Shown here: piece by piece, positions 6,844 through 36,500 of the stretch
Layout: each line of letters opens with the position of its first letter
How positions within the stretch are numbered: the stretch's first letter is position 1
Assembly: GCA_964543655.1 (NCBI GenBank)
Contig: CAZIZE010000033.1
Span: forward strand, 1 to 37,426
Source: an uncultured bacterium
GTDB lineage: Bacteria > DYJV01
Direction of reading: 5' to 3'
Length of the DNA: 37,426 bases
Position numbers and translations under genes: made by a program
The notes under the pieces: model-generated
What the model saw: the letters and a program-made list of their open reading frames with translations, nothing else
What the model was told of the DNA's origin: nothing
The model's database searches: none

Positions 6844-6851
6844 AAAAATAT

Positions 6852-6880: not shown

Positions 6881-6886
6881 ACTGTA

Positions 6887-6913: not shown

Positions 6914-6961
6914 AAGGCACTATTTAATGAATTTTAATCTAAAGTAGAGGATAATATATAT

Positions 6962-6990
6962 AGCCTTCCGTTTTGCGGAAGGCTTTTTTT
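6962..6990 (+). terminator. Intrinsic terminator (attenuator) in the panB leader
   Basis: AGCCTTCCGT-TTT-GCGGAAGGCT followed by a T-run to 6990, 12 nt before the panB ATG. Confidence 0.85.
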
Positions 6991-7002
6991 ATGGGAGAAA
7001 AT

Positions 7003-8642: not shown

Positions 8643-8657
8643 TTTTTGGAGGCAAAA

Positions 8658-9011
8658 ATGTATAGAATCATGCTTAAATCCAAAATTCATAGAGCTACTG
8701 TTACAGGTGCAGACCTTCATTATGAAGGAAGCATTACAATAGATAAAGATTTATTAAAAGCATCAAATATTTCTGTGTATGAAAAGGTTCAGATATACAA
8801 TATTAACAATGGTGCAAGATTTGAAACATATGTAATAGAAGGAGAAAGTGGCTCAGGAGAAATATGTTTAAATGGAGCTGCTGCAAGACTTGTTCAAAAA
8901 GGTGACCTTATTATTATAACTTCTTTTATAATGCTACCAGAGGAAGATGTTCAAGGATACAAGCCTGTATATGTTTTTGTTGATGAGAATAACAAACAGG
9001 TAAATAAATAA
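8658..9011 (+). CDS. panD: Aspartate 1-decarboxylase
   Basis: [20 protein letters not shown] (pyruvoyl G-S site), [20 protein letters not shown] precedes ATG 8658. Confidence 0.97.
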
Positions 9012-11033: not shown

Positions 11034-11050
11034 TTTATCCTCCTTTTATT

Positions 11051-12235: not shown

Positions 12236-12266
12236 TTTTTCCTCCTTATATTTTCTTGAAAATTTA

Positions 12267-14681: not shown

Positions 14682-14698
14682 TTTTTCCTCCTTTAAAT

Positions 14699-14716
14699 TG
14701 ATTGATTAATCATTCA
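14699..14716 (-). promoter_or_regulatory. FadR(TetR)-type operator upstream of fadN
   Basis: Minus strand TGAATGATTAATCAATCA is near-palindromic and one mismatch from the B. subtilis FadR box TGAATGANTANTCATTCA. Confidence 0.8.
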
Positions 14717-14734
14717 ATATTGTTCAAAAAAAAA

Positions 14735-15325
14735 TTATTGAGCTATTATAGCTGATTTTACTAATTTAAAAATATCTTCCTCTTTTTTGGAAAGCTTGCA
14801 TCCATTTTCAGCAAGCACCCATGAGGTAACAATCTCATCAACTGTACCAAAAATCATGTGGCCAATTACCCTGAAATTAACATCTTTTCTTATTAATCCC
14901 TCTTCTATTCCCTGCTTCAATATATTACCAATAATGCTGTAATATTTTCTCATAATGTTTTTTATTCTAATTCTAATATCCTTTTTTGACTGTCTCAGCT
15001 GGATCTGTAAAAAATTTGCAAGATCAGGATTTTTATCCATAAATTCAAGATGACCTTTTATAATTATTCTGATTTTTTCAAAAACATCGTTTTCATTAAT
15101 AACCTTTGCAAAAATTTCATTCAAAATATTATCAAGAACATATTCAAAAGATTTTATTAACAAATCCTCTTTATTTTTGAAATAAGTATAAATTGTACCG
15201 TCAGCAACATTCGCTTCTTTAGCAATATTTGAAATAGTTGATCTGAAATAACCCTTCTGGGAAATTATCTTTATTGCTGATTCAAGTATTAGCTGTTTTT
15301 TAAGTTCATTTTTTACTTTTGGCAT
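14735..15325 (-). CDS. fadR: TetR-family fatty-acid degradation repressor (B. subtilis FadR/YsiA-like)
   Basis: IAKEANVADGTIYTYFKNKEDLL helix-turn-helix; QIQLRQS and IFGTVDEIVTSW are YsiA-like; embedded in the fad operon. Confidence 0.85.
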   Translation of the reverse strand: MPKVKNELKKQLILESAIKIISQKGYFRSTISNIAKEANVADGTIYTYFKNKEDLLIKSFEYVLDNILNEIFAKVINENDVFEKIRIIIKGHLEFMDKNPDLANFLQIQLRQSKKDIRIRIKNIMRKYYSIIGNILKQGIEEGLIRKDVNFRVIGHMIFGTVDEIVTSWVLAENGCKLSKKEEDIFKLVKSAIIAQ

Positions 15326-15326
15326 T

Positions 15327-17084
15327 TTATTCCTCGTATAATTTTTCTAATTTATCTTTGTATTTATCTGTAATTATTTTTCTTTTAAGTTTTAATGTTG
15401 GAGTTATTTCTCCATCTTCCATTGAAAACTCTTTATCAAGCAAAACAAATTTTTTGATTTTTTCAAATCTTGCAAGAGGCTTGCTCCTCTTTTCAATTCT
15501 GTGCATTATTAGCCTTATAACTTTTTCATTTTCAACCATTTCTTTATTTGATTTAAAACTTAAATTCCTCTCTTTTGCCCACTGTTCAATTGCTTCAAAA
15601 TTGGGCACTATTAATGCTGAAAGAAATTTTTTACCATCACCATAAACCATTACCTCAGTAATAAAAGGATCTTCTTTTAAAATATTTTCAATTGGCTGAG
15701 GCGCTATATTTTTGCCACCAGAGGTAACAAGCAAATCTTTCTTCCTATCAGTAATTTTCAAATATCCTTCTTCATCAAGCACACCTATATCTCCAGTGCA
15801 GAAGTATCCATTTTTAAAAGCAAGTTTGTTTTCATCAGGTTTGTTATGGTAACCCTGTGTAACATTTGGCCCTTTAACAAGAATCTCTCCATCTTCTGCT
15901 ATTTTAACATCAACATCTTTTAATACTTTTCCAACAGTACCTATCTTATTTTTCTCAGGAAGATTTACTGATATAACAGGAGAAGTTTCTGTCAACCCAT
16001 ATCCTTCTAACAGATGAATACCAATACCATTGTAAAAAAGCCCAACTTCATAAGGGAGTTTTGCTCCACCAGAGATCATTATTTTCATTCTACCACCAAA
16101 AACATCTCTAAGCTTTGAGTAAACTTTTTTTTCAAAAAAATTGTACTTTAATTTATCAAAAAATGAAAATGGTTTATTGTAAGCTCTATGCTCTGCAAAT
16201 TTGGATGCAGTCTCTTTTGCACTGTAAAACATCTTTTGCTTGAGCTTAGATGCTTCTCTAACCTTCTCTATAATTCTTTCAAGAATTTTCTCATACACTC
16301 TTGGAACACTAACAAACATTGTAGGTTTAATCTCTTTTAAATTTTCTCCAATTGTATTTATATCTTCAGCATAAGCAATTATAGAGCCATAATACATTGG
16401 CACAAAATGACCAACACATCTTTCAAGAACGTGGCTTAAAGGTAGATGAGATAAAAATATATCGTCTGATGATACTTTTATAATTTCACCACCCCTTATA
16501 ATATTATGGAGAAAGTTATTATGTGTAAGGTAAACACCCTTTGGTGGACCTGTGGTGCCAGAAGTATATATTAATGTAACCAAGTCATCTAATTTAATTT
16601 CATTGACTATATTTTTAATTTTTTCATAAAAAACTTCTTGAGATTTAACAATTTTATTAAAAGTAACAATATCTTTCTCAATATCCTCTAAAACAACTAT
16701 ATGCTCCAAAAAGTCAAAATCTTTTACTTTTTCATACTGCTCTTCATTTTCTACAAAAATTATCTTCACATCTGCATCTTTAAGAATATATTCAATCTGA
16801 CCTGATGTGCTGGTTGGATAAATTGGAACAGTTACATTGCCAGCTGATAAAATACCAAAATCACAACAAAGCCACTCAAGCCTATTGTGAGAAAGTAATG
16901 CTACTTTGCTTTTTAAAGGTAAGCCTTTTGAAATTAAAAAGGAAGCTATTTTAAATACGTACAATTTAATCTCTTCCCACGAAAAATCTTTGTAAACTCC
17001 TTCGACCTTTGATTTTAGAAAAACTTTCTCAGGTGTGGACTCTGCATTTTTTATAAATTTTGCTGCTAAATTTATTTTTTCCAT
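15327..17084 (-). CDS. Long-chain fatty acid--CoA ligase (AMP-binding)
   Basis: YTSGTTGPPKG, EGYGLTETSP, TGDIG, DRKKDL..TSGGKNIAPQPIE, TPTLKLKR. Confidence 0.92.
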   Translation of the reverse strand: MEKINLAAKFIKNAESTPEKVFLKSKVEGVYKDFSWEEIKLYVFKIASFLISKGLPLKSKVALLSHNRLEWLCCDFGILSAGNVTVPIYPTSTSGQIEYILKDADVKIIFVENEEQYEKVKDFDFLEHIVVLEDIEKDIVTFNKIVKSQEVFYEKIKNIVNEIKLDDLVTLIYTSGTTGPPKGVYLTHNNFLHNIIRGGEIIKVSSDDIFLSHLPLSHVLERCVGHFVPMYYGSIIAYAEDINTIGENLKEIKPTMFVSVPRVYEKILERIIEKVREASKLKQKMFYSAKETASKFAEHRAYNKPFSFFDKLKYNFFEKKVYSKLRDVFGGRMKIMISGGAKLPYEVGLFYNGIGIHLLEGYGLTETSPVISVNLPEKNKIGTVGKVLKDVDVKIAEDGEILVKGPNVTQGYHNKPDENKLAFKNGYFCTGDIGVLDEEGYLKITDRKKDLLVTSGGKNIAPQPIENILKEDPFITEVMVYGDGKKFLSALIVPNFEAIEQWAKERNLSFKSNKEMVENEKVIRLIMHRIEKRSKPLARFEKIKKFVLLDKEFSMEDGEITPTLKLKRKIITDKYKDKLEKLYEE

Positions 17085-20451: not shown

Positions 20452-23067
20452 ATGGAAATAATCACAACCCATTTCAATCCAGATTACGATGCTCTTGCCA
20501 GTGCAATTGCAGCTAAAAAACTTTTTCCCAATGCGTACATTGTTCTTCCTGGTAATAAAGAAAGGAGTATGAAAAACTTTTTCATTCAAACTATTATATA
20601 CTCCCTTGATATTGTTGATATTAATGAAGTGGATATTCAAAAAGTTAAAAAACTTATTATTGTGGACACATCAAGGAAAGATAGAATTGGAATTTTTTCT
20701 GAAATTATAAATAAAAAAGATGTTGAAATAATTGTATATGACCATCATCTTGAAGAAAATGAAATAGAAACAGAGCATAAATTTATAAAAAAAATAGGTG
20801 CCTGCACTTCTCTTTTAGTAAAGTTTTTGGAGCAAAAGCAAATTTCACTTACTCCTGAAGAAGCTACTACCTTAATGATGGGAATTTATGAAGATACGGG
20901 CAATCTTACATTTAACACAACAACAGAAGATGACTATTACTCTGCTGCATTTTTATTAAAACATGGAGCAAATCTCAATACTGTTAGAGATATTCTGTAC
21001 CATGATATTACAATTGAACAGGTTGAAATATTAAAACAGTTCATTGAAACAGAAGAAGTAATTAATATTAGAGGTGTCAGTATTTCTATTGTAACTGCTT
21101 CTCAAGATAATTATATCCCTGAAATTGCTGTTGCTGTTCATAAGTTTAAAGACATGAGAAATCTTCCTGTTGTTATTGCTATCCTTAGGCTTGGAAGTAA
21201 AATCTATCTTATATGCCGAAGCTCAGCTCATGAGATTAGTGTAAAATATATTGCAGAATATTTTGGTGGTGGTGGACACGATTCTGCTGCTTCTGCTGTA
21301 ATAAAAGAGAAAACAGTAGTTGAAGTTTATAATTCTATTAAAGCTCTACTTCTTACTCTTGACAAAATTTCTTTAACAGCCAAAGAGATAATGACATCAC
21401 CTGTTATAACCATTACAGAGAATGACAACATACTTTTTGCCAATGAAATTTTAAATAGATACAATATTAATGTATTACCTGTTATATGCGAAAAAGATGG
21501 TAAACTCAGAGGATTAATTACAAGGCAAATTGTTGGAAAAGCTATCTATCATAATCTTGAAGAACTTAAAGTAAAGGAATATATGCTTGAAGAGTTTAAT
21601 ACTGTTGCTCCAAACACTAACTTTGAAAAAATTAAGGATATTATTTTAAAAGAAAATCAGCGTCTTCTCCCAGTTGTAACCAATGGTAAAGTTGTTGGGG
21701 TTATTACACGGACAGATATTTTAAAAACAATTTACAACATTGAAAACAAAAATAATTATATTGAAAGTGGAACAATAGAAAAAGATGTAAAAAAATTATT
21801 AAAAGGTGAAGTAGACGAGTCTATTCTTTCTAAATTTCAAATACTTGGAGCAGTTGCTGATAGATTAGGATATGGTGTTTATGTTGTTGGTGGATTTGTT
21901 AGGGATCTGATGCTCAGAAGAGAAAATTTTGATGTTGATCTTGTTATTGAGGGTAATGGGATAACTTTTGCTAAATATCTGCTGCACCACCTTGATATTA
22001 TTGAGAAAATTAGAACCTATGAAAAGTTTAAAACAGCAAAAATTTTTTTTAAAGATGGCCTTGTTTTTGACCTTGCAACAGCAAGATTGGAATATTATGA
22101 AAAACCCGGGAGTCTTCCAATAGTTGAAAAGAGCTCTTTAAAAATGGACCTTTACAGAAGAGATTTTACTATTAATACTCTTGCTATAGATATAACCAAA
22201 AAGAACTTTGGTGAATTAATAGATTTTTTTGGTGGCGTAAAAGATTTAAAAGATAAAAAAATAAGAATAATTCACAACTTAAGTTTTGTAGAGGATCCTA
22301 CGAGAATTTTCAGAGCTTTTAGGTTTGCATGTAGATTTGACTTTACCATTGGTAAACAAACAGAAACCCTTATTAAAAATGCACAAAGTCTCAAGTTACT
22401 CAATACTGTTCCAAAATCAAGAATTGCTCATGAATTAAAAGCTATTTTTGAAGAAGAAAAAGTAAGAGAAATTATTGAAATGTTAAACAGATATAAACTT
22501 CTCAAATTTGTTTTTCCAAAAACCAATGTGAATCATAAACTTTTTCAATTGCTTACTGAATTAGAAGAGATAGTCAATTGGCATAAATTAACTTTTCCTT
22601 CAGAATATTTAGAGCAGTGGATTCTATTTTTAATGGCTTTTGTTTACAAATTAAAAAGAGAGGATGTAATTGAAACATGCGATACCATTGGTTTAAATGA
22701 AAAACATTGTGCAAAAGTTGCAAATATATTAAATGAAATGGATATTATATTAAAAGAGCTTGTTATGGATAAAAACTCCACTCCTTACAAAAGGTATAAT
22801 CTTTTGAAAAATAAACATATTGAAAGCTTGCTTTTCTGCATAGCCAGATCAACAACAGAACGTGTAAAACAATATATTGTAGAATTTTTAATTAAAAACA
22901 GATTTGTAAAGCCAGATTTAACTGGTCATGATCTTATTGCCATTGGTTTAAAACCTTCACCACTGTTTAAAGAAATATTTGAAAAAATTATTGAGCTGAA
23001 ATTAAACGGAAAAATTAAAAATATTAATGATGAAAAAAATTTTGTGGAAAAAAATTATTTAAATTAA
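20452..23067 (+). CDS. DHH-DHHA1-CBS pair-class II tRNA nucleotidyltransferase (probably A-adding enzyme)
   Basis: THFNPDYDA, DHH, GIYEDTG, GGGGH; two CBS repeats; VGGFVRD..DVDLV, RRDFTIN, EDPTRIFRA.RF. Confidence 0.88.
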   Translation: MEIITTHFNPDYDALASAIAAKKLFPNAYIVLPGNKERSMKNFFIQTIIYSLDIVDINEVDIQKVKKLIIVDTSRKDRIGIFSEIINKKDVEIIVYDHHLEENEIETEHKFIKKIGACTSLLVKFLEQKQISLTPEEATTLMMGIYEDTGNLTFNTTTEDDYYSAAFLLKHGANLNTVRDILYHDITIEQVEILKQFIETEEVINIRGVSISIVTASQDNYIPEIAVAVHKFKDMRNLPVVIAILRLGSKIYLICRSSAHEISVKYIAEYFGGGGHDSAASAVIKEKTVVEVYNSIKALLLTLDKISLTAKEIMTSPVITITENDNILFANEILNRYNINVLPVICEKDGKLRGLITRQIVGKAIYHNLEELKVKEYMLEEFNTVAPNTNFEKIKDIILKENQRLLPVVTNGKVVGVITRTDILKTIYNIENKNNYIESGTIEKDVKKLLKGEVDESILSKFQILGAVADRLGYGVYVVGGFVRDLMLRRENFDVDLVIEGNGITFAKYLLHHLDIIEKIRTYEKFKTAKIFFKDGLVFDLATARLEYYEKPGSLPIVEKSSLKMDLYRRDFTINTLAIDITKKNFGELIDFFGGVKDLKDKKIRIIHNLSFVEDPTRIFRAFRFACRFDFTIGKQTETLIKNAQSLKLLNTVPKSRIAHELKAIFEEEKVREIIEMLNRYKLLKFVFPKTNVNHKLFQLLTELEEIVNWHKLTFPSEYLEQWILFLMAFVYKLKREDVIETCDTIGLNEKHCAKVANILNEMDIILKELVMDKNSTPYKRYNLLKNKHIESLLFCIARSTTERVKQYIVEFLIKNRFVKPDLTGHDLIAIGLKPSPLFKEIFEKIIELKLNGKIKNINDEKNFVEKNYLN

Positions 23068-23435
23068 TAATTGGAGGTAGTTTGAAGCCTGAAATTCGGA
23101 GTTAGAATTAAGATATTTTTTTAATATAAACAGGTTATAAATTTTTCTATTGTTTCATTTCGTTAGAATATTCCCAAAAAGTTATTCAGATTAAAATGAA
23201 CAATCCTTTATACAAGTTCACAGTTTAAGGTCCATACCTCAAAGTTGAAAGATAATTAATAACAATAACTTAAGAATATTGAGGATATAATTTAAAGTAG
23301 AAAGTTGTATTATAACCATATTTAGTTTTACTCACCTATCTATTGTATAATTTTTTACCATTTCGTAATATAACGTTTAAAATTTCATAAAAATTTTTCT
23401 TGCATTTTTTTTTATTTTTTATTATTTGCTCACTC

Positions 23436-23637
23436 GCAGGTTCAGGGAAGAGGGTGAGAATCCCACACTGTCCCCGCAGCCGTGAGTCAGTCCGGTAATT
23501 TGCCGGAAGATTCTGATTCTTTGTCACTGATATGTTTGGTGTATGCTGGCATATTGGGAAGGCAAAGATCTTAATCAGAATCTGGTAACCTGACAAGTCG
23601 GAAGACCTACCTGCATATTATCTCTCGGGGATTAGAG
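23436..23637 (+). ncRNA. Cobalamin riboswitch
   Basis: P1 GCAGGT(23436)/ACCTGC(23614); AGGGAA; GGGTGAGAATCCC T-loop; ACTGTCCCCGCAGCCGTGA; GTCACTG...GGGAAGGC; B12 box AAGTCGGAAGACCT; downstream CTCT-CGGGGA-TT-AGAG hairpin whose loop is complementary to TCCCCG. Confidence 0.93.
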
Positions 23638-23705
23638 GCTGAGTGGTATATATGATTCTTTTACCTTTTCAAACCATTCACCTCTTATCCCAAAAATTTT
23701 TTTTT
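23628..23705 (+). terminator. Riboswitch expression-platform hairpin, terminator-like
   Basis: GGGATTAGAGG-C-TGAGTGGT pairs with ACCATTCA-CCTCTTATCCC, followed by AAAAA and a 9-T run. Confidence 0.5.
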
Positions 23706-23789
23706 GAAAATTAATTTGGAAGGAGGTGGTAATCGTTAATATTTGAGAAATTACTATTTTTAAAAAGAAAAAATTGAGGAGGTAAAGAA

Positions 23790-26378
23790 GTGTATAAAAA
23801 ACTTCTAATATTTTTAACATTACTATTTTGCTCAAATTATTTATTAGCAGAAACCCCTAAAATTATTACTAATTTATCTGCTAATAATTCAAAAATAAGT
23901 GGGGTATTAAAAATTTCTGGTATTTCAGAATCAGATTTAACTACAAATTGTTATTTTCAAAATGGAGACTCTTTAGGATTATGGATTGCTGCTATAGGAG
24001 AAAATTATTCCCAAATTGGCTCTATTTCAAATTGTAACTATTCTAATAATGAGCTGAATTGTAATATTGAAATTGATAATTTACAAAATGATGAATATAA
24101 AATATGGATAGGCCCTGGAATATTTTCAAAAAATTGTCCATTACCAGATGGATATGTAAAGGATGGATATGTCGATAATCAATCAACTATAAATAGCGCC
24201 TCCATTTATGAAGTTGCAAGCTTAGAACCAGTTTTCTCAGATATAACTGTAAATAATAATATAATTGCAGGAAAAATTGCTATAAACAATATTTCTGAAC
24301 ACCAGCTTTCAACATGTTTTTATCAATCTGATGGTTCAATTGGTTTATGGGTTGCGGCCATAGGATTGCAGAATTCAAAAATTGGCAATATATCAAATTG
24401 TTCATACAATAATGGCAAACTAATATGTAGTTTTGAAATAGATAACCTTAATAATGATAGGTACAGAATTTGGATTGGCCCAGGAATCTATTCAGAAAAT
24501 AATTGTTTAATTCCAAATGGCTATATTAGCAAAGAACATGTTGATGTTTCAATTAATAATGCTGATGTTTATACTGTAAGCAATGTTGAATCAGAAAATA
24601 CTTTAAGTGAAATAAATGTTAATAATAATGAGATAACTGGTAAAATTAATTTTAAAAATATCTCAGAAACCCAGCTTGCAAACTGCTTTTATCAATCAGA
24701 TGGCACCATTGGATTATGGGTAGCAGCAATTGGCACTCAAAGTTCACAAATAGGTCATATTTCAAATTGCAGTTTTAGCAATGGAAATCTCTCTTGTGAT
24801 TTTGCTATTGAAAATCTTAACAATGATACATACAAAATATGGTTAGGCCCCGGAATTTTCTGTGAAAATAATTGCTTATTGCCAACTGGTTATCTAAAAG
24901 ATGGTAATTTTGATGCAAATTTTAATGAAGCATCTACTTATAAAGTTAGTAATACAGCATCTACTGGAGGTGGAGGAGCTATTATTACTTCCACACCAAT
25001 AGAAAATCCAGAAGAAAAAGAATACACAACACAAATTAATATAGATGAAGTTATTAGTGATGATAATATAGCTGCTAATACAGAGAATTATATTGAAATA
25101 AACAGTGAGAAATTGGGTAAAGGAGTTGAATTTAATCTTTCAACTTCTGAAAAGCCTGTTTTATTTAAAGATAATAAAATTCCTGAAAATTTTAAAATAG
25201 TAGGTGGAGAAATTTTAGGCGGTCTCAAAGGTGATGTGGATATTAATAATTTGGAGAAAAGCTCTGATGTAGAACAAAAACTTAAAGAAGTTCTACCTGA
25301 AGTAAAAGATGTTACTATAAAACCATTAAATGGGAAGATTGAAGTTGAAAATGTTATCCTTCAAAATGTAAAAATAGATTCAGATAATATAGAAAATATA
25401 GATTTTGGCAAAGGTGTAATCTTTGATGAGAATACAATTAAGAATATTACTAATAGTGTAAATAAAGATATTTCCATAAAGCAAGTTGTTCCTGATGTAA
25501 AAATCACTACTAACAATATTAATGTAAACATGAATGTACCTTCTCCATCTTTTCCTATTATGGTAGATAAAAGTGGCAATATGGTAACGCCAGCTGATAT
25601 TGTCACAGATACTTTGAAAAGTGCTGGAATTAAAGATATCAAATCAGATGTGACAAACACAGGAGCAATTCAATTTGATATTAAAGGTGTTAAATTTTAT
25701 ACAATTATTAAAGATATTCTGCTTGGTGATGCAAATAATTTTACAGCAGATAATAATGCTAAGTTGTTGAGAAATGGCGAATTTTTAATAAAACAAAATG
25801 GTATAAACATTATATTATCTCCAGCTCCATATAATATTAATGAAATTGACTCGTTATTTGCATCCATTAAAGATTCTCTACCTTCTTTTTCAGCCAACAT
25901 AGATGAAGATGGTATATTAACAGCTTCATGGAAAGATAATAGTGGAACAACTATTAAAATAGCCTCCTGTTTCAGTGGCATGATTTCACAATCTGAAAAT
26001 AAACCATCACAACTTACATTATCTGTTAGTTTAAAAAATAGAGTTGCTGGAATCACAGCTACTTATACAGATGGAAGTGCAGAATTTTGGGCACCATATT
26101 TTATAGGAATGAAATATATAGAGACCTGGCTGGATAAATATATTAATAATGGTTCTCTTCAAAATTGGCAGTTTGATAGATATACCGGCATTCTTACTTT
26201 AACAACAAATGATGGAAAAGAAATAAAGGTTTCTCCTGACTTAAAATTTAGAGCTTTAACCATAGAAGAGCAGGAAAAATTAAACAAATCTTCTGATAAT
26301 GTTACCATTGAAAATATTAATAATAACTGGTTTTTAATAACACCAGAAGGTACTCAACAATTTAAAATAATTGAATAA
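23790..26378 (+). CDS. Secreted hypothetical protein with three tandem ~122-aa Cys-containing repeats and an unrecognised C-terminal region
   Basis: GTG start with GGAGG; Sec signal peptide (MYKKLLIFLTLLFCSNYLLA); GLW(I/V)AAIG and IW(I/L)GPGI each occur three times. Confidence 0.85.
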   Translation: MYKKLLIFLTLLFCSNYLLAETPKIITNLSANNSKISGVLKISGISESDLTTNCYFQNGDSLGLWIAAIGENYSQIGSISNCNYSNNELNCNIEIDNLQNDEYKIWIGPGIFSKNCPLPDGYVKDGYVDNQSTINSASIYEVASLEPVFSDITVNNNIIAGKIAINNISEHQLSTCFYQSDGSIGLWVAAIGLQNSKIGNISNCSYNNGKLICSFEIDNLNNDRYRIWIGPGIYSENNCLIPNGYISKEHVDVSINNADVYTVSNVESENTLSEINVNNNEITGKINFKNISETQLANCFYQSDGTIGLWVAAIGTQSSQIGHISNCSFSNGNLSCDFAIENLNNDTYKIWLGPGIFCENNCLLPTGYLKDGNFDANFNEASTYKVSNTASTGGGGAIITSTPIENPEEKEYTTQINIDEVISDDNIAANTENYIEINSEKLGKGVEFNLSTSEKPVLFKDNKIPENFKIVGGEILGGLKGDVDINNLEKSSDVEQKLKEVLPEVKDVTIKPLNGKIEVENVILQNVKIDSDNIENIDFGKGVIFDENTIKNITNSVNKDISIKQVVPDVKITTNNINVNMNVPSPSFPIMVDKSGNMVTPADIVTDTLKSAGIKDIKSDVTNTGAIQFDIKGVKFYTIIKDILLGDANNFTADNNAKLLRNGEFLIKQNGINIILSPAPYNINEIDSLFASIKDSLPSFSANIDEDGILTASWKDNSGTTIKIASCFSGMISQSENKPSQLTLSVSLKNRVAGITATYTDGSAEFWAPYFIGMKYIETWLDKYINNGSLQNWQFDRYTGILTLTTNDGKEIKVSPDLKFRALTIEEQEKLNKSSDNVTIENINNNWFLITPEGTQQFKIIE
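23865..24953 (+). repeat. Intragenic triplication (~366-369 nt period)
   Basis: GLW at aa 63, 185 and 308; four Cys at equivalent positions in each unit. Confidence 0.9.
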
Positions 26379-26396
26379 AATAAAGGAGGTAATATC

Positions 26397-27878
26397 ATGG
26401 TAAAAAAATTCTATTTATTTATAATTGCTTGTTTATTGATTATAGGTAGTATTTCTTTAAAAGCTGAAACTTTGAATATTAAATCAGGATGGAATGTATT
26501 TCAATCAGACCTAAATATTGTTTCAGTTAATCAATTTGCAAAAGATGGCATTGTAGGTATTGTTAAATTAAAACCTGGTAAAAATTATGAGCTCACAAAA
26601 GATAATTGGTATGTATGGAGTGACAATAATACGTTGCTTAAAGCTTTAACTGATGCTGATTGGACAACTTTTGAAGGAATATATAAAAATAACCTTTATG
26701 CTGTATTTTCTACAAAATCCATAAACCTTGATATATCAAGCTCTTGTCAGATTCCTTACTTACCAATAGCTACAGAATCATATAATTATCAAACAGGAAT
26801 GTATTCAATAGTTGACCTAAACAATCTAACAGCGTATAAACAGTTAAATACATATTCTCTTGGTGGAGATATAAGAGCTTATGTTTATGGTGATTATATT
26901 TTTGTTGTTGATGCACCTAATAGTGGTAATACTTCCACATGGTATGTATATAAAATAGACCAAACATCAACAACACTTGACCAGACAAAAGCTAAAACAA
27001 CTATTGCCAATTATACTATTAATAGGCAGAATCCACACAGTATTGCATTTTCAAGCGATTCCAAAGCATACCTTACAACTTATTTTGATAATTCAATACT
27101 TATTTTTAATCCCCAAAATGGAAATGAGCTTGGCACAATTGATTTAACTCCATATTTATATACTGCTGACAATGGTACTCAAAATAAATATATTGGTGCA
27201 GAAGCAATGTTAATGACAGGTGACAAATTGTATGTATCACTTGATAGAGCGAGAACATATTATGGTGATGCCACTCCTGATAAAAGCATGATTCTTGTTA
27301 TAGATACAACAAATGATACTGTTACTAAATCTATTAAAGTTCCATATTCTCCAAGATCTCTACAAATTTTTGGAAATTATCTATACTTCTTATCTATGGG
27401 CGACTACTCCAACCCAATTGGCAAAATTTATAGAATAAATCTTTCAGATTATTCATTAGATAGCAATTTTGTAATCTCACCAATTGTTTCAGGTTCATCT
27501 ACTGAATACATAAAAAATTTTGTTATCACACCAGAAGGAGAATTGTTTTTGGTAACAAATGCTGGATGGGGACAGCCTTACAATGTATATATGATCGACA
27601 ATGTAGAAAAATATAATGATTCCACAAAAGCTGGATTAAATACCACAGCAATCTATTCTGCTTCTGGCTATGTACCTGATTTAGATTTTGTATGTGGTTA
27701 TCTTGTAATTGCTGACAGAGGAAAAGCAGATATAGACTATAAAACTAAAGAGGTAAAAGAAATTTTGCAGCAGGGAGCACTTGTTTTTATTGATACTAAT
27801 GGAAAAGTTGTTAAGAAAATTTTAGATACAGATCTTGGCTACCCTCCTTATAAAATAGGTTCTGATTACAATTATTAA
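26397..27878 (+). CDS. Secreted YncE/BtuG-like beta-propeller protein
   Basis: Signal peptide; blades such as NPHSIAFSSDSKAYLT, GTIDL, GDKLYVSL, ILVIDTTNDTVTKSIKV; lies directly before a TonB-dependent receptor in a B12-riboswitch operon. Confidence 0.65.
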   Translation: MVKKFYLFIIACLLIIGSISLKAETLNIKSGWNVFQSDLNIVSVNQFAKDGIVGIVKLKPGKNYELTKDNWYVWSDNNTLLKALTDADWTTFEGIYKNNLYAVFSTKSINLDISSSCQIPYLPIATESYNYQTGMYSIVDLNNLTAYKQLNTYSLGGDIRAYVYGDYIFVVDAPNSGNTSTWYVYKIDQTSTTLDQTKAKTTIANYTINRQNPHSIAFSSDSKAYLTTYFDNSILIFNPQNGNELGTIDLTPYLYTADNGTQNKYIGAEAMLMTGDKLYVSLDRARTYYGDATPDKSMILVIDTTNDTVTKSIKVPYSPRSLQIFGNYLYFLSMGDYSNPIGKIYRINLSDYSLDSNFVISPIVSGSSTEYIKNFVITPEGELFLVTNAGWGQPYNVYMIDNVEKYNDSTKAGLNTTAIYSASGYVPDLDFVCGYLVIADRGKADIDYKTKEVKEILQQGALVFIDTNGKVVKKILDTDLGYPPYKIGSDYNY

Positions 27879-27884
27879 AAATTT

Positions 27885-27905
27885 TCTCCGGGTTTATCCC
27901 GGAGA
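27885..27905 (+). terminator. Intra-operon stem-loop (partial terminator or mRNA stabiliser)
   Basis: TCTCCGGG-tttat-CCCGGAGA followed by GAACTTTT. Confidence 0.55.
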
Positions 27906-27926
27906 GAACTTTTAAAAAGGAAGAAA

Positions 27927-29939
27927 ATGATGCATTATAGAAATTGGTTTATAATTATAATAATTTTTTTAACTCTATATTATACAAGCATATTTTCTGC
28001 AAATTTTTATATTCTTCCAGATATAATAGTGCAGTCATCTAAATATTCTCAATTAGAAAAAAGTCCTTACACAAAAACAGTAATTAATGTTGAAAAGCAT
28101 AAATTTGAAGAGAAAACCCTTGGTGAGCTTCTTGAAACAGCGCCTGGAGTTCATGTAACATCTCTTGCTGGACGAGGTTCATATACTACTATATCTATAA
28201 GGGGAAGCACTTCATCTCAGGTGCTTGTGTATATTGATGGCATACTTGTAAATAATGGTGGAGAGAGCAGTGTTGATCTTAGCACAATTCCAGTGGAAGA
28301 TATAAAAAAAATAGAAATTTACAGAGGAAATATTCCTCCTAAATTTGGTAGAGCTGGTATTGGAGGCGTTATTAATATTATAACAAAAAAGCGCTCTTCC
28401 ATGTTTAATAGTAGGCTTTCATATGGTAGTTTTAAATTTTATCAAATGGAAAACAATATTAATTATAACTTTAAAAATTTCAACAATTTCCTTAATATAT
28501 CTTTTGAAGGAAGTACAGAAGATTATCCTTATTATAATGATGACAACACTCCTTTTAATAAAACAGATGATTATCACGCACACAGGAGAAACAATTATTA
28601 TAACCAGAAAAATATTTTGTATAATTTGAGAAAAATTTTTAATACCTCTATTTTAAATATTACTTATAGACATTTCTACAAACACAAAGAATTACCTGGA
28701 GCTGCTCCAGCAAGAGATACTGAAAGTAGCGATACAGATGCATCATTAAATAGAATCAGAAATCAAGTTGAACTTTCATATTCATATAATTACAAAAATG
28801 CTATTTTTGGCATTCAAGGATACATTGGCAGAGAAAGAAAATATTTTAACAATCCTCATTATGCTCTTGGAATGTATAGTTTATTGAAATCAGCCTATTA
28901 TACACACAAAAATGGTTTTAATTTTTCATTTGATTTATCAAAAAATAATCTTTTAAATTTTAAATTTTATTTAACAAAAAATTTTGAAAATTTAAAAACA
29001 GATTTTACACCTAATACTTCTTTTTTAATTGATTCAAAATACAACAGGAAAGAAACTGATCTTACTATTTCAAATAAATTTTTCTTATTCAAAAAAAGTT
29101 TGATAATAGAGCCAGTGTTTAGAAAAAATATAATTACTGATACCAATTATAACAGTAATGTAAAATCACATTTTAATAAAAACTCTAAGTCAGCAGGAGT
29201 TAAATATTTTTTACCTTTTATAACATCTTTTAATCCATATATAAAATTTAATTATGGAAAGTTTTTCAGATTTCCTAATTTTTACGAAAAATTTGGTGAT
29301 GGAGCCACTCTCCTTTCAAGTGAAGGATTAAAACCTGAAAATAGTATTAACAGAGATTATGGTTTTGGTTTTAATTACTATTTCAATAAATACCCTTTTT
29401 CTATTTCAGGAGATTTTACCTATTTTAATAATTATGTGAAAGATCTTATTGAATTTGTAATGGTAAATGAAAGATACTCTAAATATAAAAATATTGAAAA
29501 TGCTAAAATAAAGGGATATGAAGTATTATTAAATTTCAATTTTAAAATAATCAATATAATAATGAATTACTCCAAACTTGATGCAAAATCAGGACAATTT
29601 GGCTATAAAAAAAACAAACCTTTACCAAATAGGCCAGAAAATTCAGCATACATGAGAATACAGCTTAATCTAAAAAAATTTTCTTACTGGATTGATGGTA
29701 ATAAAGTAGGCAAAAACTATTTTGACGATGGTGGTTATTACTATTACAATGATTATACAATATTTAATACTGGTTTTATCTACTCATACACCAAACATTT
29801 GAAATTTAGCATTACTGTTAAAAATTTTACCAACAATCAAGATATGTATGCTTATGCTGCTGGATACAATGTTCCGAAAACACCATACTATCCACTAAAA
29901 GGTAGGAGTTTCTATTTATCTATTAATTATAATTGGTAA
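27927..29939 (+). CDS. TonB-dependent outer-membrane receptor, probably corrinoid (BtuB-like)
   Basis: TonB-box-like LPDIIVQS; plug motifs PGV, SIRGS, VLVYIDG, IEIYRG, GGVINIITK; LKPE; C-terminal GRSFYLSINYNW. Confidence 0.9.
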   Translation: MMHYRNWFIIIIIFLTLYYTSIFSANFYILPDIIVQSSKYSQLEKSPYTKTVINVEKHKFEEKTLGELLETAPGVHVTSLAGRGSYTTISIRGSTSSQVLVYIDGILVNNGGESSVDLSTIPVEDIKKIEIYRGNIPPKFGRAGIGGVINIITKKRSSMFNSRLSYGSFKFYQMENNINYNFKNFNNFLNISFEGSTEDYPYYNDDNTPFNKTDDYHAHRRNNYYNQKNILYNLRKIFNTSILNITYRHFYKHKELPGAAPARDTESSDTDASLNRIRNQVELSYSYNYKNAIFGIQGYIGRERKYFNNPHYALGMYSLLKSAYYTHKNGFNFSFDLSKNNLLNFKFYLTKNFENLKTDFTPNTSFLIDSKYNRKETDLTISNKFFLFKKSLIIEPVFRKNIITDTNYNSNVKSHFNKNSKSAGVKYFLPFITSFNPYIKFNYGKFFRFPNFYEKFGDGATLLSSEGLKPENSINRDYGFGFNYYFNKYPFSISGDFTYFNNYVKDLIEFVMVNERYSKYKNIENAKIKGYEVLLNFNFKIINIIMNYSKLDAKSGQFGYKKNKPLPNRPENSAYMRIQLNLKKFSYWIDGNKVGKNYFDDGGYYYYNDYTIFNTGFIYSYTKHLKFSITVKNFTNNQDMYAYAAGYNVPKTPYYPLKGRSFYLSINYNW

Positions 29940-29959
29940 ATTATAAAGAGAGGTGTAAA

Positions 29960-31840
29960 ATGAAAAAAATATTAATTATCTTTTTTTTAATGATACTTTT
30001 TACAAAATTTCTATATGCTGACTACAACAGAATAGTTTCCCTAAATCCATCTATAACCCAGATGCTGTTTGCACTTGGTGAAGGAAACAAAGTGGTAGGG
30101 GTAACCTATCATGATACTGTGCCATTTGAAGCTACAAAAAAAACAATAGTAGGAGGTTTTTTTGCTCCTGACATAAAAAGAATTTCTAAGCTGCATCCTG
30201 ACCTAATATTCTGTGCAAAATTTCATAAGAATGTAATTAATCATTTTGAAAATAAAGCAAGAATTATTATTTTAAATGCTCATTCTATTGAAGATATTTT
30301 CAAAAACATTCAATTTCTTGGAAAATTTTTCAAAAAACAGAAAAAAGCAGAAGAAATCATCACTAAAATAAAAAAAGAGATAGCTCTTATTCAGGAGAAA
30401 TTAAAATTTATACCTATAAATAAGAGAAAAAGGGTTATAAGAATTATGGGTAGAGGATATGTGCCTGGAAAGAATTCTTTTCAAATTGATGTGATTAAAA
30501 GAGCAGGTGGAATTCCTTTTATTCCAAAGGAAAAAGGTGATATTTATAAAATTTCATTAAAAGAATGGAAAAAATTTAATCCTGATATAATTTATGTTTG
30601 TGGAAATGACAAAAATTATCTTCATAATTTTTTTCAACAAAAAGGCTGGAGAGATGTTAATGCTGTAAAATACAATAGAATTTTTACTTTTCCATGTGTT
30701 TTAACATGCAGACCTTCAATTTACACAGGTTATTTTATTCAATGGTTAAGTGCCACCATATATGGAGACGAATTTTTTAAAGAAAAAAATATTATTACAA
30801 AGCATAAAATTTTAAACAAAAAGCCTCTTAAAAACAATTTTAATTTTGTTAAGTCAATCAATCTTGTATCTGGAATTATAAACGATTTTCCACATAAAAC
30901 ACTTTTAATACAATTTAACAACCCTGAAAAAATTCTTTCAACACTTGATGGCTTTAGAAAAGTAAAGTTTGTTGGAAATCATTATCTTGTTCCTCCTCGC
31001 TGGAATGAGGGGCACAAAAATTTTAAAAAATTTAAACAGGAAGTTGCAACAGCTCTTGGCATTAACTTAAGAAATTCTTCTCTTTTATATACTGGTGCTA
31101 ATATGAAAAATCTTGCTTACAATTTTGCTAAATTTAAAGATATTAAATTGGAAGTCTTTGCAACAGCTGGTGTTCGCTCAAATGCAATGAGATGTGGTTA
31201 TGAAAAGGGTATATTTATTAATCATGGTACAATTAATATAATTGTTTTAACAAATTTAAAATTAAGTAATAGAGCTATGGCAAGAACTCTTATAACTGTT
31301 ACAGAGGGGAAAACAGAGGCTCTTCAAGAACTTGATATTAGAAGCTCCTATAATCCCATAAAGTATCAAGCAACTGGTACCGGAACAGATAATATAATTA
31401 TTGTATCTGGAAATGGAAGGAAAAAAGATATAGCAGGAGGGCATTCAAAATTTGCCCAAATACTTGCAAATCTTGTAAGGATTTCTGTGAAACAGGCAAT
31501 TTTAAAACAGAATAGAATTATTGCAAATAGAAATATTTTCCAAAGGCTTGAGGAAAGAAATATAAGACTCTTTAATTTATCGAAAATATGTAGTAATTAC
31601 AATAAGAAAAATTTAAAAGAAAATATGTTAAAATTGCAAAATATACTTTTAAACAAAAAATATGCAGATTATTTAAAGACATGTTTTGCTCTTTCAGATA
31701 GTTATAATTATCATTTAATAAATAGTTACAAAATATTAAATATATCAAAACATATGAAAAATATTAAGGAAACTAACTATCCACCTGTAATTGATTATTG
31801 CATTGATAATATTTTAAACTTGGTGATTTATGGAGATTAA
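29960..31840 (+). CDS. Exported BtuF-type substrate-binding protein fused to a CbiZ adenosylcobinamide amidohydrolase domain
   Basis: Signal peptide from ATG 29960; RIVSLNPSITQMLFALG..VVGVT (helical-backbone SBP); CbiZ motifs TGANM, ATAGV..NA, GTINII, TEGK..AL, ATGTGTD. Confidence 0.85.
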   Translation: MKKILIIFFLMILFTKFLYADYNRIVSLNPSITQMLFALGEGNKVVGVTYHDTVPFEATKKTIVGGFFAPDIKRISKLHPDLIFCAKFHKNVINHFENKARIIILNAHSIEDIFKNIQFLGKFFKKQKKAEEIITKIKKEIALIQEKLKFIPINKRKRVIRIMGRGYVPGKNSFQIDVIKRAGGIPFIPKEKGDIYKISLKEWKKFNPDIIYVCGNDKNYLHNFFQQKGWRDVNAVKYNRIFTFPCVLTCRPSIYTGYFIQWLSATIYGDEFFKEKNIITKHKILNKKPLKNNFNFVKSINLVSGIINDFPHKTLLIQFNNPEKILSTLDGFRKVKFVGNHYLVPPRWNEGHKNFKKFKQEVATALGINLRNSSLLYTGANMKNLAYNFAKFKDIKLEVFATAGVRSNAMRCGYEKGIFINHGTINIIVLTNLKLSNRAMARTLITVTEGKTEALQELDIRSSYNPIKYQATGTGTDNIIIVSGNGRKKDIAGGHSKFAQILANLVRISVKQAILKQNRIIANRNIFQRLEERNIRLFNLSKICSNYNKKNLKENMLKLQNILLNKKYADYLKTCFALSDSYNYHLINSYKILNISKHMKNIKETNYPPVIDYCIDNILNLVIYGD

Positions 31841-33190: not shown

Positions 33191-33525
33191 AATTTATAAA
33201 AAAAAGAAGATTTTCTGAAAAAATTCAGGCATCAGAAGATCCCCTTTCTGGTGTTGCAAACCTTTTTGATGTAGGGCTTGTGTTCATTGTAAGCTTATTA
33301 CTAACAGTTATGAGTGTTTATCATATTACAGATTTTTTCAGTAACAAATCTGAAATTACTATAATGAAAAAGGATAGTAATGGTAAACTTGAAATTATTA
33401 TGAAAAAAGGGAAAATTATTAAAGCTTATAAAGCTACTGAAAAGATTGGAGAAGGTGAAGGTGAAAAACTTGGCACTGCTTATAGATTAAAAAATGGCAA
33501 AATTATTTATATCCCTGAAAAATGA
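33187..33525 (+). CDS. DUF2149 single-pass membrane protein (ExbD/MotB-like partner)
   Basis: EDPLSGVANLFDVGLVF transmembrane segment with an intramembrane Asp; GEGEKLGTAYRL..GKIIYIPE. Confidence 0.82.
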   Translation: MKFIKKRRFSEKIQASEDPLSGVANLFDVGLVFIVSLLLTVMSVYHITDFFSNKSEITIMKKDSNGKLEIIMKKGKIIKAYKATEKIGEGEGEKLGTAYRLKNGKIIYIPEK

Positions 33526-36500
33526 AAAAATTTTTTTATATTTTATTTATAGTTTTTTATTTTTGTAATTTTGCAAATGCAAAATCATACAAAAAAATTT
33601 TGTTTCTAATTGGTGAGCCATATAGCGGAGTTCTCTCAAAAGCAATAAAAAATATATCAATACAGAATCCAGATAAAAATATATCTCAAAATGTTACCTT
33701 TGTTGTTAGAAAAAATTTCTCTCAAGTTAATACGAAATTTTTATCAAAATACTCTATATTTCTTATAGACACAATGTATCCCTCTACAAAAAGAATAATA
33801 AAAATTATTCCATCTAACAAAAAAATTTTCTCTTTAAGAGCGCCTAATGGTGGTTATTCAACAGAATTTAATAATAAATTAATCTTTGATAAAAATATCT
33901 TAGAATATTTTTCATTTCCTGAATTACAAAACAGTGAAAATCTTATAAAATATGTAATGAACTTAGAAAATAAAACAAAATTTAAAATAGCAAAACCTAC
34001 TCTTCTAAAACAAGTTTTTATAGCACATCCTGATAGTAAAAAGCTATTTACAGATTACAAAGATTACTTAAATTGGTACAAATCAAGTCATCATTTTAAA
34101 AAAAATGGTTTCTGGGTGGGAATTACATATTACAGACCTATGGTGAATAATAGAATGATTACTTCTTTAGTAAAACAGTTTGAAAAGGCTGGGATTAATG
34201 TAATTGTTCTTTACAGTTTTCCAGATTATCTTGCAATAAAAAAATTTCTTTTGCCTCATAAAGTTGATTTATTAATAGGAATATCTTTCAAATTTTCTGC
34301 GTCCCTTGATAAAAAGGGTAAAACTACTCTTTCAAAATTAAACGTTCCAGTGTATAATGGAATATCATTATTTCAAACATCAGAAACAGTTTGGGCTTTA
34401 TCTAATAAAGGTCTAACACCATTTGAAGTTTCATTTCAAGTTGCCCTTCCTGAGCTTGCAGGTATTATAGAACCTACTGTAATAGCATCAAAGGAAAGGA
34501 TATTTGATCCTTACACTCAAAAAGATATATTTGTGAGTCAAACAATTAATTACCAAGTTAAATGGTTAATAAAAAGAATTAAAGCTATGAGGAATCTTCA
34601 AATAAAACCGAACAGAGATAAAAAAATCGCTATATTTTATTACAATCATCACCCAGGAAAACAGAATATAGGTGCAAGCTATTTAAATGTTATGAAATCG
34701 CTGTCAGTTATTTTAAACTCATTAAGAAAACATGGTTACAACATACCTGCAAAGGTGAAACTTAACTATAATACATTAAAATCAGAAATGCTCCTTTCTG
34801 GTAGAAATGTTGGTAATTATGCTCCTGGTGAAATTGATAAACTTGTAAGCAGTGGAAAAGTTGTATTATTGCCAATAAAAAAATATAAAAAATGGATAAA
34901 AAATGTTCCTACAAATTTCATAAATCCTGTTTTAAAAAAATGGGGAAAGCCTGAAGATAGTAAAATTATGGTTTACAAAAATAATTTTATTATTCCAATG
35001 GTAAAAATTAGTAAAAATATTATAATATTACCACAACCATCAAGAGGATGGGGGCAATCACCACTAAAAATGTATCATGATGTAACTTTGCCTCCTCATC
35101 ATCAATATATTGCTGTTTATTTGTGGTTAAAAAAGATTTTCAAAGCAGATGCAATTATTAACCTTGGAACACATGGTACTCAAGAATGGCTACCAGGCAA
35201 GCAGGTTGGAACTATTTACTGGGATTATGGTGATTATTTGGTACAGGATATTCCTGTTCTCTATCCTTATGTAATGGATGACATTGGAGAAGCAATTCAG
35301 GCAAAGAGAAGAGGAAGAGGTATAATTATTAGCCATCTTACTCCTGTTATGAAAAAAGGTAACCTTTTTGGAAAATATCTTAAACTTGCAGATAAAATAC
35401 AGCAATACAGCATTGCTCTTACAAAGGATAAAGAGCTTGCAAGACAAAAATTCTTAGAGATTAAAGAGCTTACAAAAGCAACAGGAATTAATAGAGATCT
35501 TAGATTAAGAAAAATCACACCTGATGCTGTTGAAAAAATAGAACATTATCTAATTGATTTAAAAGAGCAAACCTTGCCTTATGGGCTTCACACCTTTGGT
35601 AAAATTAGCAATAAAGGTGCAAAAGATTTTGCTTCATTACTTGCAAAAACTTATCCTAATTACAAAAAAAATTCATCTAAATATTTTTATAATATTTTAA
35701 AACAGAGCGCTAAAAATGAAATAAATAATCTATTAAAAGGACTAAATGGAGAATATATCTCCCCGGGCCATGGTAATGACCCTCTCCGATCTCCAGATGC
35801 GTTACCTGCAGGTAGAAATCTTTATGCATTTGATTCAAGCAAAATTCCTTCAAGAGAAGCTTACAACCTTGGTAAAAAACTTGTAAATGAGAGTATTTTT
35901 AAATTTAGAAAAGAACATAACAATCATTATCCCAAAAAGGTTGAAATTATTTTATGGAGTGTTGAAACTTGTAGAGATGAAGGCATAGCTGTTAGCCAGG
36001 CAATGTATTATATGGGTATAAAACCGGTATGGGATTCAAGAGGGAGAGTAAAAGGAGTTGCTGTTATACCAGGAAATATTTTAAAAAGGCCACGAATAGA
36101 TGTTGTTATGCAGCCATCTGGTTTATTTAGAGATATGTTTCCAAATTTAATTAAACTTCTTGATAAAGCTATTAATTTAGCTGTAAAACAGAGAGATATT
36201 GAAAACTTTTTAAAAGAGAACTCAGAAACATTATATAAAACATTAATTAAAAAAGGTTATAATAGGAAAGAAGCAAAAATTTTATCTAACATAAGAATAT
36301 TTGGTGAACCGCCAGGTGCATATGGAACAATGGTAGCAAAATTAACTGGAAGTTCTGGATTATGGGACAACAGCTCTGAAATTGCTGCTGTTTATATTAA
36401 CAGACTTTCCTATGGCTATTCAACTAAATATTGGGGGAAGCCTTTAAAAAAATTGTTTAAAGAGAATTTAAAAAATGTAGATACTGTTATTCATACTTTA

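What the first reader, a model, noticed from the sequence alone, without database searches (positions are those of the whole stretch)
23790..26378. First gene under the riboswitch is an unrecognised secreted protein with a triplicated four-Cys domain
Seen: after the signal peptide come three ~122-aa units (aa ~26-388) sharing C(F/Y)(Y/F)Q...GLW(I/V)AAIG...IG.ISNC...L.C..EI.NL.ND.Y.IW.GPGI....C..P.GY. A GGGG/Thr-Pro linker and a ~450-aa beta-rich region follow. I recognise no family. The aromatic, Gly and Cys positions are invariant while the DNA has diverged, which suggests purifying selection. Inference: a new disulfide-stabilised Ig-like corrinoid- or cobalt-binding surface domain, multimerised for avidity.
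Basis: partly seen in the sequence, partly recalled or inferred. Interest (0 to 1): 0.75.

Follow-up and report, generated by a model that had tools for sequence, protein, structure and literature searches.

The report
Orphan secreted protein heading B12 operon
A secreted protein with no detectable relatives, made of three antibody-like domains and an unsolved tail, is the first gene of a vitamin B12-controlled uptake operon and may help capture B12 outside the cell, though binding is untested.

Summary
ORF 23790-26378 (862 aa) follows a cobalamin riboswitch whose anti-Shine-Dalgarno segment fits this gene's own start. It carries three 122-123-aa repeats (49-61% identical, dN/dS 0.21-0.38, four invariant Cys each), a Gly/Thr/Pro linker and a 452-aa tail. 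AlphaFold models the repeat confidently (pLDDT 86) as an Ig-like beta-sandwich with only generic fold matches (best Z 8.6). The tail did not fold. No relative of the repeat was found among 1.84 billion representative proteins, and no part matched Pfam, NCBIfam or PDB sequences. Downstream lie a BtuG-like propeller, BtuB, BtuF-CbiZ and a BtuS/HmuS-type chelatase cluster: a known kind of locus. Best reading (0.45): a B12-repressed extracellular corrinoid-capture protein feeding BtuG-BtuB, working like BtuH/BtuJ without a detectable sequence link to them. Where it binds is unknown. In BtuH2 three Ig domains are a stalk and the C-terminal domain binds. Cobalt-ion binding is unlikely (no shared His or Met), and avidity does not apply to a monomeric ligand.

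The parts
23421..23628 (+). Cobalamin riboswitch aptamer (RF00174)
   Evidence: cmscan 64.8 bits, E 5.9e-14, full model 1-189; only Rfam hit in 23050-28000 at E<=1
23655..23672 (+). Anti-Shine-Dalgarno segment; can pair with the gene's RBS or with the aptamer from 23446
   Evidence: Duplex with RBS -16.6 kcal/mol (20 of 2000 shuffles as good), with aptamer -17.1 (12 of 2000); RBS paired in MFE folds
23774..23789 (+). Ribosome-binding region (GGAGG at 23778-23782, 7 nt before GTG)
   Evidence: Sequence; unpaired probability <=0.01 in the leader fold
23790..26378 (+). Orphan secreted protein, 862 aa (the finding)
   Evidence: no family or homologue
23790..23849 (+). Probable Sec/SPI signal peptide, aa 1-20, no canonical lipobox
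   Evidence: Read from sequence and hydropathy; no predictor run
23856..24221 (+). Repeat 1 (aa 23-144), four Cys
24222..24590 (+). Repeat 2 (aa 145-267), four Cys; modelled as Ig-like beta-sandwich
   Evidence: AF2 pLDDT 86.3, pTM 0.81; fold searches
24591..24959 (+). Repeat 3 (aa 268-390), four shared Cys plus Cys358
24960..25019 (+). Gly/Thr/Pro linker (aa 391-410)
   Evidence: Sequence
25020..26375 (+). C-terminal region (aa 411-862), orphan, fold unresolved; candidate anchor or ligand domain
   Evidence: No homologue; AF2 pLDDT 42.7
26397..27878 (+). BtuG/YncE-like beta-propeller with an extra ~95-aa N-terminal region; signal peptide without evident lipobox; starts 18 nt after the orphan
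   Evidence: phmmer to 8puj, 8okv, 8p97, 8bai, 3dsm over aa 211-359, E 1e-4 to 3e-3; 70% identical partial relative in L001
27872..27918 (+). Intergenic hairpin (21-bp arms) between the propeller gene and btuB
27927..29939 (+). TonB-dependent receptor, BtuB-like
   Evidence: Best NCBIfam TIGR01779 E 4.8e-42, below its cut-off; BtuB chains among top PDB hits
29933..31840 (+). BtuF-like binding protein fused to CbiZ amidohydrolase
   Evidence: PF01497 + PF01955
31830..33525 (+). DUF2162, MotA/ExbB and DUF2149 genes
   Evidence: PF09930, PF01618, PF09919
33522..37418 (+). CobN-like chelatase, closest to HmuS/BtuS
   Evidence: PF02514; best PDB hit HmuS 9d26 E 3e-151 versus CobN 9uk9 E 2e-113

Best explanation
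An accessory corrinoid-capture protein of a BtuG-BtuB uptake locus. (1) Computed: when cobalamin is bound, the aptamer folds and the 23655-23672 segment pairs with the ribosome-binding site, so the gene is off; at low B12 that segment can pair with the aptamer strand and the gene is translated. (2) Inferred from sequence: the protein is exported by Sec without a lipid anchor and its Cys form two disulfides per repeat, one across the D-E hairpin and one joining the enlarged BC and FG loops. (3) Inferred from context: it binds corrinoids outside the outer membrane and hands them to the BtuG-like propeller and BtuB; BtuF-CbiZ then carries and remodels them. (4) Weakest step: the site. I lean slightly to the loop cap of the repeats (about 0.25), with the tail as the surface anchor, over the BtuH2 arrangement with repeats as stalk and tail as binder (about 0.2). 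With no N-terminal lipid, the repeats cannot be a stalk from an N-terminal anchor as in BtuH2.
For: Riboswitch. Anti-SD fits this gene's RBS better (-16.6) than the start regions of 9 other window genes (-7.2 to -12.6) and pairs alternatively with the aptamer, so the gene is the switch's adapted target. GC3 0.153 and codon index 0.742 lie at or within the range of 17 other window genes. Neighbours are BtuG-like, BtuB-like and BtuF-CbiZ; the order propeller-btuB-btuF/cbiZ-next gene recurs in L001. In B. thetaiotaomicron btu loci most accessory secreted proteins tested bind B12 using unrelated folds: BtuH, BtuJ, BtuK1, but not BtuK2 (PMC13616437 sections 4-6). The repeat is acidic (37 D+E, 17 K+R) and rich in Asn, Tyr, Trp, the residue types at those sites. 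Invariance concentrates in strand C (7 of 8) and EF loop plus strand F (11 of 15) versus A-B strands (4 of 23).
Against: No homologue, so linkage to B12 loci rests on one genome; L001 starts inside the propeller gene and does not show this slot. In BtuH2 and BtuK1 the Ig/PKD domains are not the B12 site. Best fold matches are amylase N-domains, CBM21 and FnIII domains, and tandem triplication is typical of stalks and adhesins (own knowledge). C/F-strand conservation is also what an Ig core gives; acidity and Asn richness are shared by the tail and by many secreted proteins of AT-rich genomes. With the RBS forced open, the single-molecule MFE did not place the anti-SD on the aptamer. Surface versus periplasmic location is not shown.
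Confidence: 0.45

Rival explanations
1. Tether or adhesin: induced by B12 shortage but does not bind B12. The three Ig domains bind a polyvalent target (glycan, a producer cell, or several copies of the non-lipidated BtuG-like protein) and keep the capture machinery near the cell or the source.
For: Triplication gives real avidity only for polyvalent targets (reasoning). Top fold matches include starch-binding CBM21 and amylase N-domains (Z 6.2-8.6). The propeller lacks an evident lipobox, whereas Bacteroides BtuG lids are lipoproteins (PMC10404256 passages).
Against: The fold matches are generic (7-15% identity for the top rows, Z near the level unrelated models reach; notes). No adhesin, cohesin or CBM family matched in Pfam.
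Confidence: 0.25
2. Passenger: a lineage-specific surface protein that came to lie behind the riboswitch and has no role in corrinoid uptake.
For: Complete orphan while the downstream genes are ordinary families. Surface proteins with Ig repeats and Gly linkers shuffle often (own knowledge).
Against: The anti-SD fits this gene's own start region, including bases beyond the SD (20 of 2000 shuffles). Codon use is native and repeats are under purifying selection.
Confidence: 0.2
3. Cobalt-ion or other metal capture, serving the BtuS/HmuS-like chelatase.
For: A CobN/HmuS-type chelatase cluster is in the same run of genes. B12 riboswitches also control cobalt chelatase genes (PMC545781 passages).
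Against: No shared His and no Met in the repeats. The Cys spacing fits disulfides in an exported protein (inference).
Confidence: 0.05
4. The unresolved tail is an enzyme or a B12-independent substitute that is repressed by B12.
For: B12 elements can repress B12-independent isozymes (PMC545781 passages). The low-confidence tail model gave nucleotidyltransferase-like alpha/beta rows at Z up to 6.9.
Against: That model has pLDDT 42.7, so its matches are not meaningful. No enzyme family matched above cut-off. The protein is exported.
Confidence: 0.05

Closest known systems
BtuH2 (BT1956, PDB 7BIZ) of Bacteroides thetaiotaomicron
   Same: Exported, in a riboswitch-controlled btuG-btuB locus, three N-terminal Ig-like domains followed by a separate C-terminal region.
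   Different: BtuH2 is a lipoprotein with PKD domains. This protein has no evident lipobox, larger four-Cys Ig domains, a 452-aa tail and no sequence match to any PDB chain at E<=10.
BtuJ (DUF4465, PF14717) and BtuK1 (PKD + propeller)
   Same: Accessory secreted B12 binders of btu loci; the role proposed here.
   Different: Jelly-roll or propeller sites; no Pfam or PDB sequence match.
Ig-like E-set/FnIII beta-sandwiches (amylase N-domains 8jnx, 9vdg, 1uh2; CBM21; ROS1 FnIII)
   Same: Overall fold: 8jnx Z 8.6, rmsd 2.6 A over 98 residues, 7% identity; 9oyz Z 7.3, 2.9 A over 88.
   Different: A helix-bearing BC loop, a roughly 28-residue FG segment and four conserved Cys; similarity is at fold level only and shows no function.
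btuS/hmuSTUV-type cluster with btuB, btuG, btuF-cbiZ under a cobalamin riboswitch
   Same: CobN-like chelatase closest to HmuS, with DUF2162, MotA/ExbB and DUF2149 genes (PMC6460266 and PMC12583661 passages).
   Different: B12-controlled rather than iron/heme; the position aligned to HmuS heme ligand His254 is Phe here.
SpaA/prealbumin-like pilin domain (PF17802)
   Same: A short P-x-G-Y resemblance made two SpaA-repeat proteins weak hits to the repeat profile.
   Different: Best single-domain scores 6-8 bits, summed over many repeats, covering about 35-55 of 123 positions, no Cys or Trp motif; not accepted as homology.

Membership tests
Cobalamin-riboswitch regulon | RF00174 aptamer above gathering score directly upstream, same strand | tested here: met
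   64.8 vs 31.5 bits, ends 161 nt before the start codon
Cobalamin-riboswitch regulon | Expression platform able to sequester this gene's RBS | tested here: met
   Anti-SD duplex -16.6 kcal/mol, 20 of 2000 shuffles; computed, not assayed
BtuH family | Three N-terminal Ig-like domains (BtuH2 type) | tested here: met
   Three repeats, Ig-like model
BtuH family | Sequence similarity of the C-terminal region to the BtuH B12-binding domain | tested here: not met
   0 PDB sequences at E<=10 for the full protein and for aa 411-862; remote homology not excluded
BtuH family | BtuH fold in the C-terminal region | tested here: inconclusive
   Tail model pLDDT 42.7; searches not meaningful
BtuH/BtuJ/BtuK/BtuG lipoproteins | SPII lipoprotein signal | tested here: inconclusive
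   By eye Cys14 is in L-L-F-C, not a lipobox as recalled; no predictor available
BtuH/BtuJ/BtuK/BtuG lipoproteins | Direct cobamide binding | not testable with these tools
   Needs binding assay; no cobalamin ligand in the modelling tools
BtuJ / DUF4465 | PF14717 match | tested here: not met
   No Pfam match for the whole protein or parts
PKD domain | Pfam/NCBIfam PKD model match | tested here: not met
   0 families for each of the 3 repeats at E<=10
Ig-like beta-sandwich fold class | Two-sheet Greek-key sandwich aligning to Ig/FnIII/E-set domains over the whole domain | tested here: met
   pLDDT 86.3; 299 of 48161 chains at Z>=5, top rows Ig/FnIII/E-set; best Z 8.6
Starch-binding CBM21 / amylase N-domain | Fold match standing clear of unrelated rows, plus family HMM match | tested here: inconclusive
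   Z 8.6 then 7.4, but the same entry scored 6.6; no Pfam match
SpaA / prealbumin-like adhesin domain | PF17802 match or full-domain profile match | tested here: not met
T9SS C-terminal sorting domain | TIGR04183 / PF18962 match in the last 80 aa (model names recalled) | tested here: not met
   No such match for the last 80 and 93 aa
   No homologue found, so linkage cannot be scored

The most novel reading that the evidence does not exclude
The repeat is a new corrinoid-binding fold class: an Ig domain whose BC and FG loops are stapled by a disulfide into a B12 pocket, displayed in triplicate on a new surface-anchoring module. With the non-lipidated BtuG-like neighbour it would form an extracellular B12 relay outside Bacteroidota that works without lipoprotein anchors.
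Probability: 0.2. Interest if true: 0.7.

Novelty: new variant of a known kind. Interest (0 to 1): 0.42.

Why it matters
Each accessory protein found in Bacteroides btu loci has given a different B12-binding fold, and TonB transporters with lipoprotein lids are described as a Bacteroidetes feature (PMC10404256). A riboswitch-led locus with a BtuG-like propeller and an orphan Ig-repeat protein, neither with an evident lipobox, would extend extracellular B12 capture to another lineage and add a small, disulfide-bonded 123-aa candidate binder. The test is cheap: express one repeat and the tail and measure binding. The limit is that this is one orphan in one contig of unknown taxon, so it bears on few organisms until relatives appear. 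Paper searches found no description of such a protein; the library lacks most subscription papers.

Tried and rejected
Homologue searches. Whole protein in the 5.8-billion set, 474-1509 aa: 1 hit of 7999 candidates scored, itself. Repeat profile, 217-2000 aa: 1 of 8000, itself. Tail aa 590-862, 479-2000 aa: 1 of 2932, itself. The first two were saturated with candidates, and shorter proteins were not searched for the tail. HMMER over 1.84 billion representatives with the repeat profile: 4 hits, itself plus three rejected as sums of weak matches in repetitive proteins (best domain 12, 8 and 6 bits). The tail was never run against that library, so its orphan status is less firm. ESM Atlas: nothing for the repeat, unnamed clusters at 0.78-0.79 for the tail, below the useful range. 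Pfam, NCBIfam, PHROGs: nothing above cut-off. PDB sequences: none for protein or tail, one chance row (E 0.57) for the repeat profile. Plasmids and phages by tblastn: none. Fold searches: Foldseek 0 matches at E<=0.001 in PDB and viral libraries; BtuH, BtuJ and BtuK were not among the listed rows, which excludes nothing. Tail: three ~90-aa alpha/beta units seen by eye are not supported (best pair 43 of 1000 shuffles, others 322 and 833); their profile gave only chance PDB rows; tail fold searches rest on a poor model. A recalled resemblance of the tail to C-terminal modules of Beggiatoaceae surface proteins and to amine-oxidase stalk domains comes from no call and was not confirmed. GTDB scan with BtuF-CbiZ: 1 relative among 190 candidate stretches, on a 4.6-kb contig lacking the upstream slot. 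Complex prediction, repeat with propeller protein: no answer, score 0.07 against a mark of 0.32, no evidence either way. Promoter scan uninformative: 32 sites versus 33 expected. Cluster membership and taxon could not be looked up; metagenome and viral contig collections stayed unchecked.

Full report
Observation. The ORF at 23790-26378 encodes 862 aa from a GTG start with GGAGG 7 nt upstream. Three units at aa 23-144, 145-267 and 268-390 are 49, 50 and 61% identical, far above chance (0 of 1000 shuffles for each pair). Four Cys and two Trp are invariant; 49 of 123 columns are invariant in all. Nucleotide identity is 60-67% and dN/dS is 0.21-0.38, rough because dS is 1.1-1.7. So the repeats are old and under purifying selection. 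A Gly/Thr/Pro linker (aa 391-410) leads to a 452-aa tail with no hydrophobic segment. The N-terminus reads as a Sec signal peptide without a canonical lipobox; this is by eye.

Regulation. Rfam finds a full cobalamin aptamer at 23421-23628. The segment 23655-23672 pairs with the gene's ribosome-binding region (-16.6 kcal/mol, 20 of 2000 shuffles) and alternatively with the aptamer from 23446 (-17.1, 12 of 2000). Start regions of 9 other window genes pair less well with the same platform (-7.2 to -12.6). The RBS is paired in the folds. One result is against: with the RBS forced open, the MFE did not put the anti-SD on the aptamer. The simplest reading is a translational OFF switch fitted to this gene. 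Codon use is ordinary for the window.

Context. Eighteen nt downstream starts a 493-aa protein whose aa 211-359 match Bacteroides YncE/surface-layer propellers (8puj, 8okv, 8p97, 3dsm; E 1e-4 to 3e-3); 8p97/8p98 also hold a BtuB chain, and I take these as BtuG. Then come a BtuB-like receptor, a BtuF-CbiZ fusion, DUF2162, MotA/ExbB, DUF2149 and a CobN-like protein closest to HmuS. The one GTDB relative found (L001, contig CAZQKL010000140.1, 70% identical) keeps propeller-btuB-btuF/cbiZ but begins inside the propeller gene. The taxon is unknown. Strong GGAGG sites and an A-adding tRNA nucleotidyltransferase suggest it is not Bacteroidota; that rests on my own knowledge.

Relatives. None. The repeat profile against 1.84 billion representatives returned the protein itself and three weak summed matches that I reject. 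Word-indexed searches with the whole protein, the repeat and the tail returned only the protein itself. Family libraries, PDB sequences, plasmids, phages and the ESM Atlas gave nothing usable. The tail had no exhaustive search, so remote relatives remain possible.

Structure. AlphaFold2 with the three repeats as alignment gives pLDDT 86.3, pTM 0.81: strands 3-11, 14-22, helix 26-33, strands 42-48, 56-63, 66-73, 79-87, a long segment to 117-119. Structure searches place it among Ig/FnIII/E-set sandwiches without a specific match: best Z 7.3 among 48161 chains, best Z 8.6 (8jnx, 2.6 A, 98 residues, 7% identity) among Foldseek's top 999, no Foldseek hit at E<=0.001. I had no coordinates. From the strand pattern I infer one disulfide across the 56-63/66-73 hairpin and one between the helix after strand B and the long segment after strand F, which would staple two enlarged loops at one pole. 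I-x-N-L-x-N-D-x-Y looks like the tyrosine corner of Ig/FnIII domains (recalled), so part of the conserved motif is structural. The tail folded poorly (pLDDT 42.7) and its searches mean little.

Mechanism. The locus argues for a role in corrinoid acquisition. In B. thetaiotaomicron, BtuH, BtuJ and BtuK1 bind B12 with unrelated folds while BtuK2 does not (PMC13616437, abstract and sections 4, 5, 6 read). I put direct capture and hand-off to the propeller and BtuB at 0.45. [quoted passage not shown] But BtuH2 hangs from an N-terminal lipid, and this protein seems to have none, so if it is anchored at all the tail is the likelier anchor and the repeats are the distal end. I split 0.25 repeat, 0.2 tail. 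Cobalt binding is unlikely (no shared His, no Met). Avidity does not apply to a monomeric ligand, which raises the tether or adhesin rival to 0.25. A passenger gene (0.2) is weakened by the fitted anti-SD.

Comparison and novelty. The locus is a known kind: riboswitch, btuG, btuB, btuF-cbiZ and a BtuS/HmuS-type cluster (PMC6460266, 5 passages; PMC12583661, 9 passages; PMC545781, 12 of 26 passages). The protein may work like BtuH or BtuJ but fails the sequence tests for both families; the fold test for the tail is inconclusive. Lipoprotein-capped TonB transporters are described as mainly Bacteroidota (PMC10404256, 12 of 31 passages; bioRxiv 10.1101/2023.03.17.533168, 11 passages), so a non-lipidated version elsewhere would be a variant worth noting. 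Other papers were seen only as search listings; none described this protein or domain. No supplements were read.

Verdict. This is a real, selected, riboswitch-controlled orphan with a generic Ig-like repeat and a cheap decisive assay, but no comparative or biochemical evidence of binding. Interest 0.42; new variant of a known kind; novel case 0.2 probable, worth 0.7 if true.

Noticed in passing
window 23677-23735: A second SD-like run (GGAAGGAGGTGG, about 23718-23729) is locked in its own hairpin inside the leader, with no ORF of note after it; its pairing is not beyond shuffles (337 of 2000). Possibly a remnant start region or part of the switch.
   Followed up: partly
window 27872-27918; L001 345-358: A 21-bp hairpin separates the propeller gene from btuB; in L001 the same gap is only 12 nt. 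It could raise the first two genes' mRNA over the rest or end transcription from the other strand.
   Followed up: partly
window 26397-27878: BtuG-like propeller with a signal peptide lacking an evident lipobox and an extra ~95-aa N-terminal region (S-G-W-N motif) that matches no family above cut-off. How it stays at the surface is open.
   Followed up: partly
window 33522-37418: CobN-like protein with N-terminal signal and C-terminal hydrophobic tail, closer to HmuS than to CobN, under a B12 riboswitch; Phe at the position aligned to HmuS His254. A candidate corrinoid or cobalt (de)chelatase; no cobS/cobT or chlD/I in the window.
   Followed up: partly
window 29933-31840: BtuF-like binding domain fused to CbiZ behind a signal peptide, implying cobamide remodelling outside the cytoplasm; the listed TTG start is probably upstream of the true ATG at 29960, which has an SD. 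No BtuC/BtuD ABC genes in the window.
   Followed up: no
window 9249-17084 (-): Fatty-acid oxidation cluster fadD-fadR-fadB-fadA-fadE with Bacillus-type FadR and FadE best hits, in a diderm with aldehyde ferredoxin oxidoreductase.
   Followed up: no
window 20452-23067: A-adding tRNA nucleotidyltransferase with DHH and CBS domains (split CCA system), a possible clue to the taxon.
   Followed up: no
window 754-8642: Molybdopterin oxidoreductase, aldehyde ferredoxin oxidoreductase, a glycosyltransferase-like gene and panBC (panD follows at 8646-9011); ordinary.
   Followed up: no
window 24859-24861 (aa 358): Repeat 3 has a fifth Cys, and the tail a single Cys727; two unpaired Cys that could link domains or chains.
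   Followed up: no
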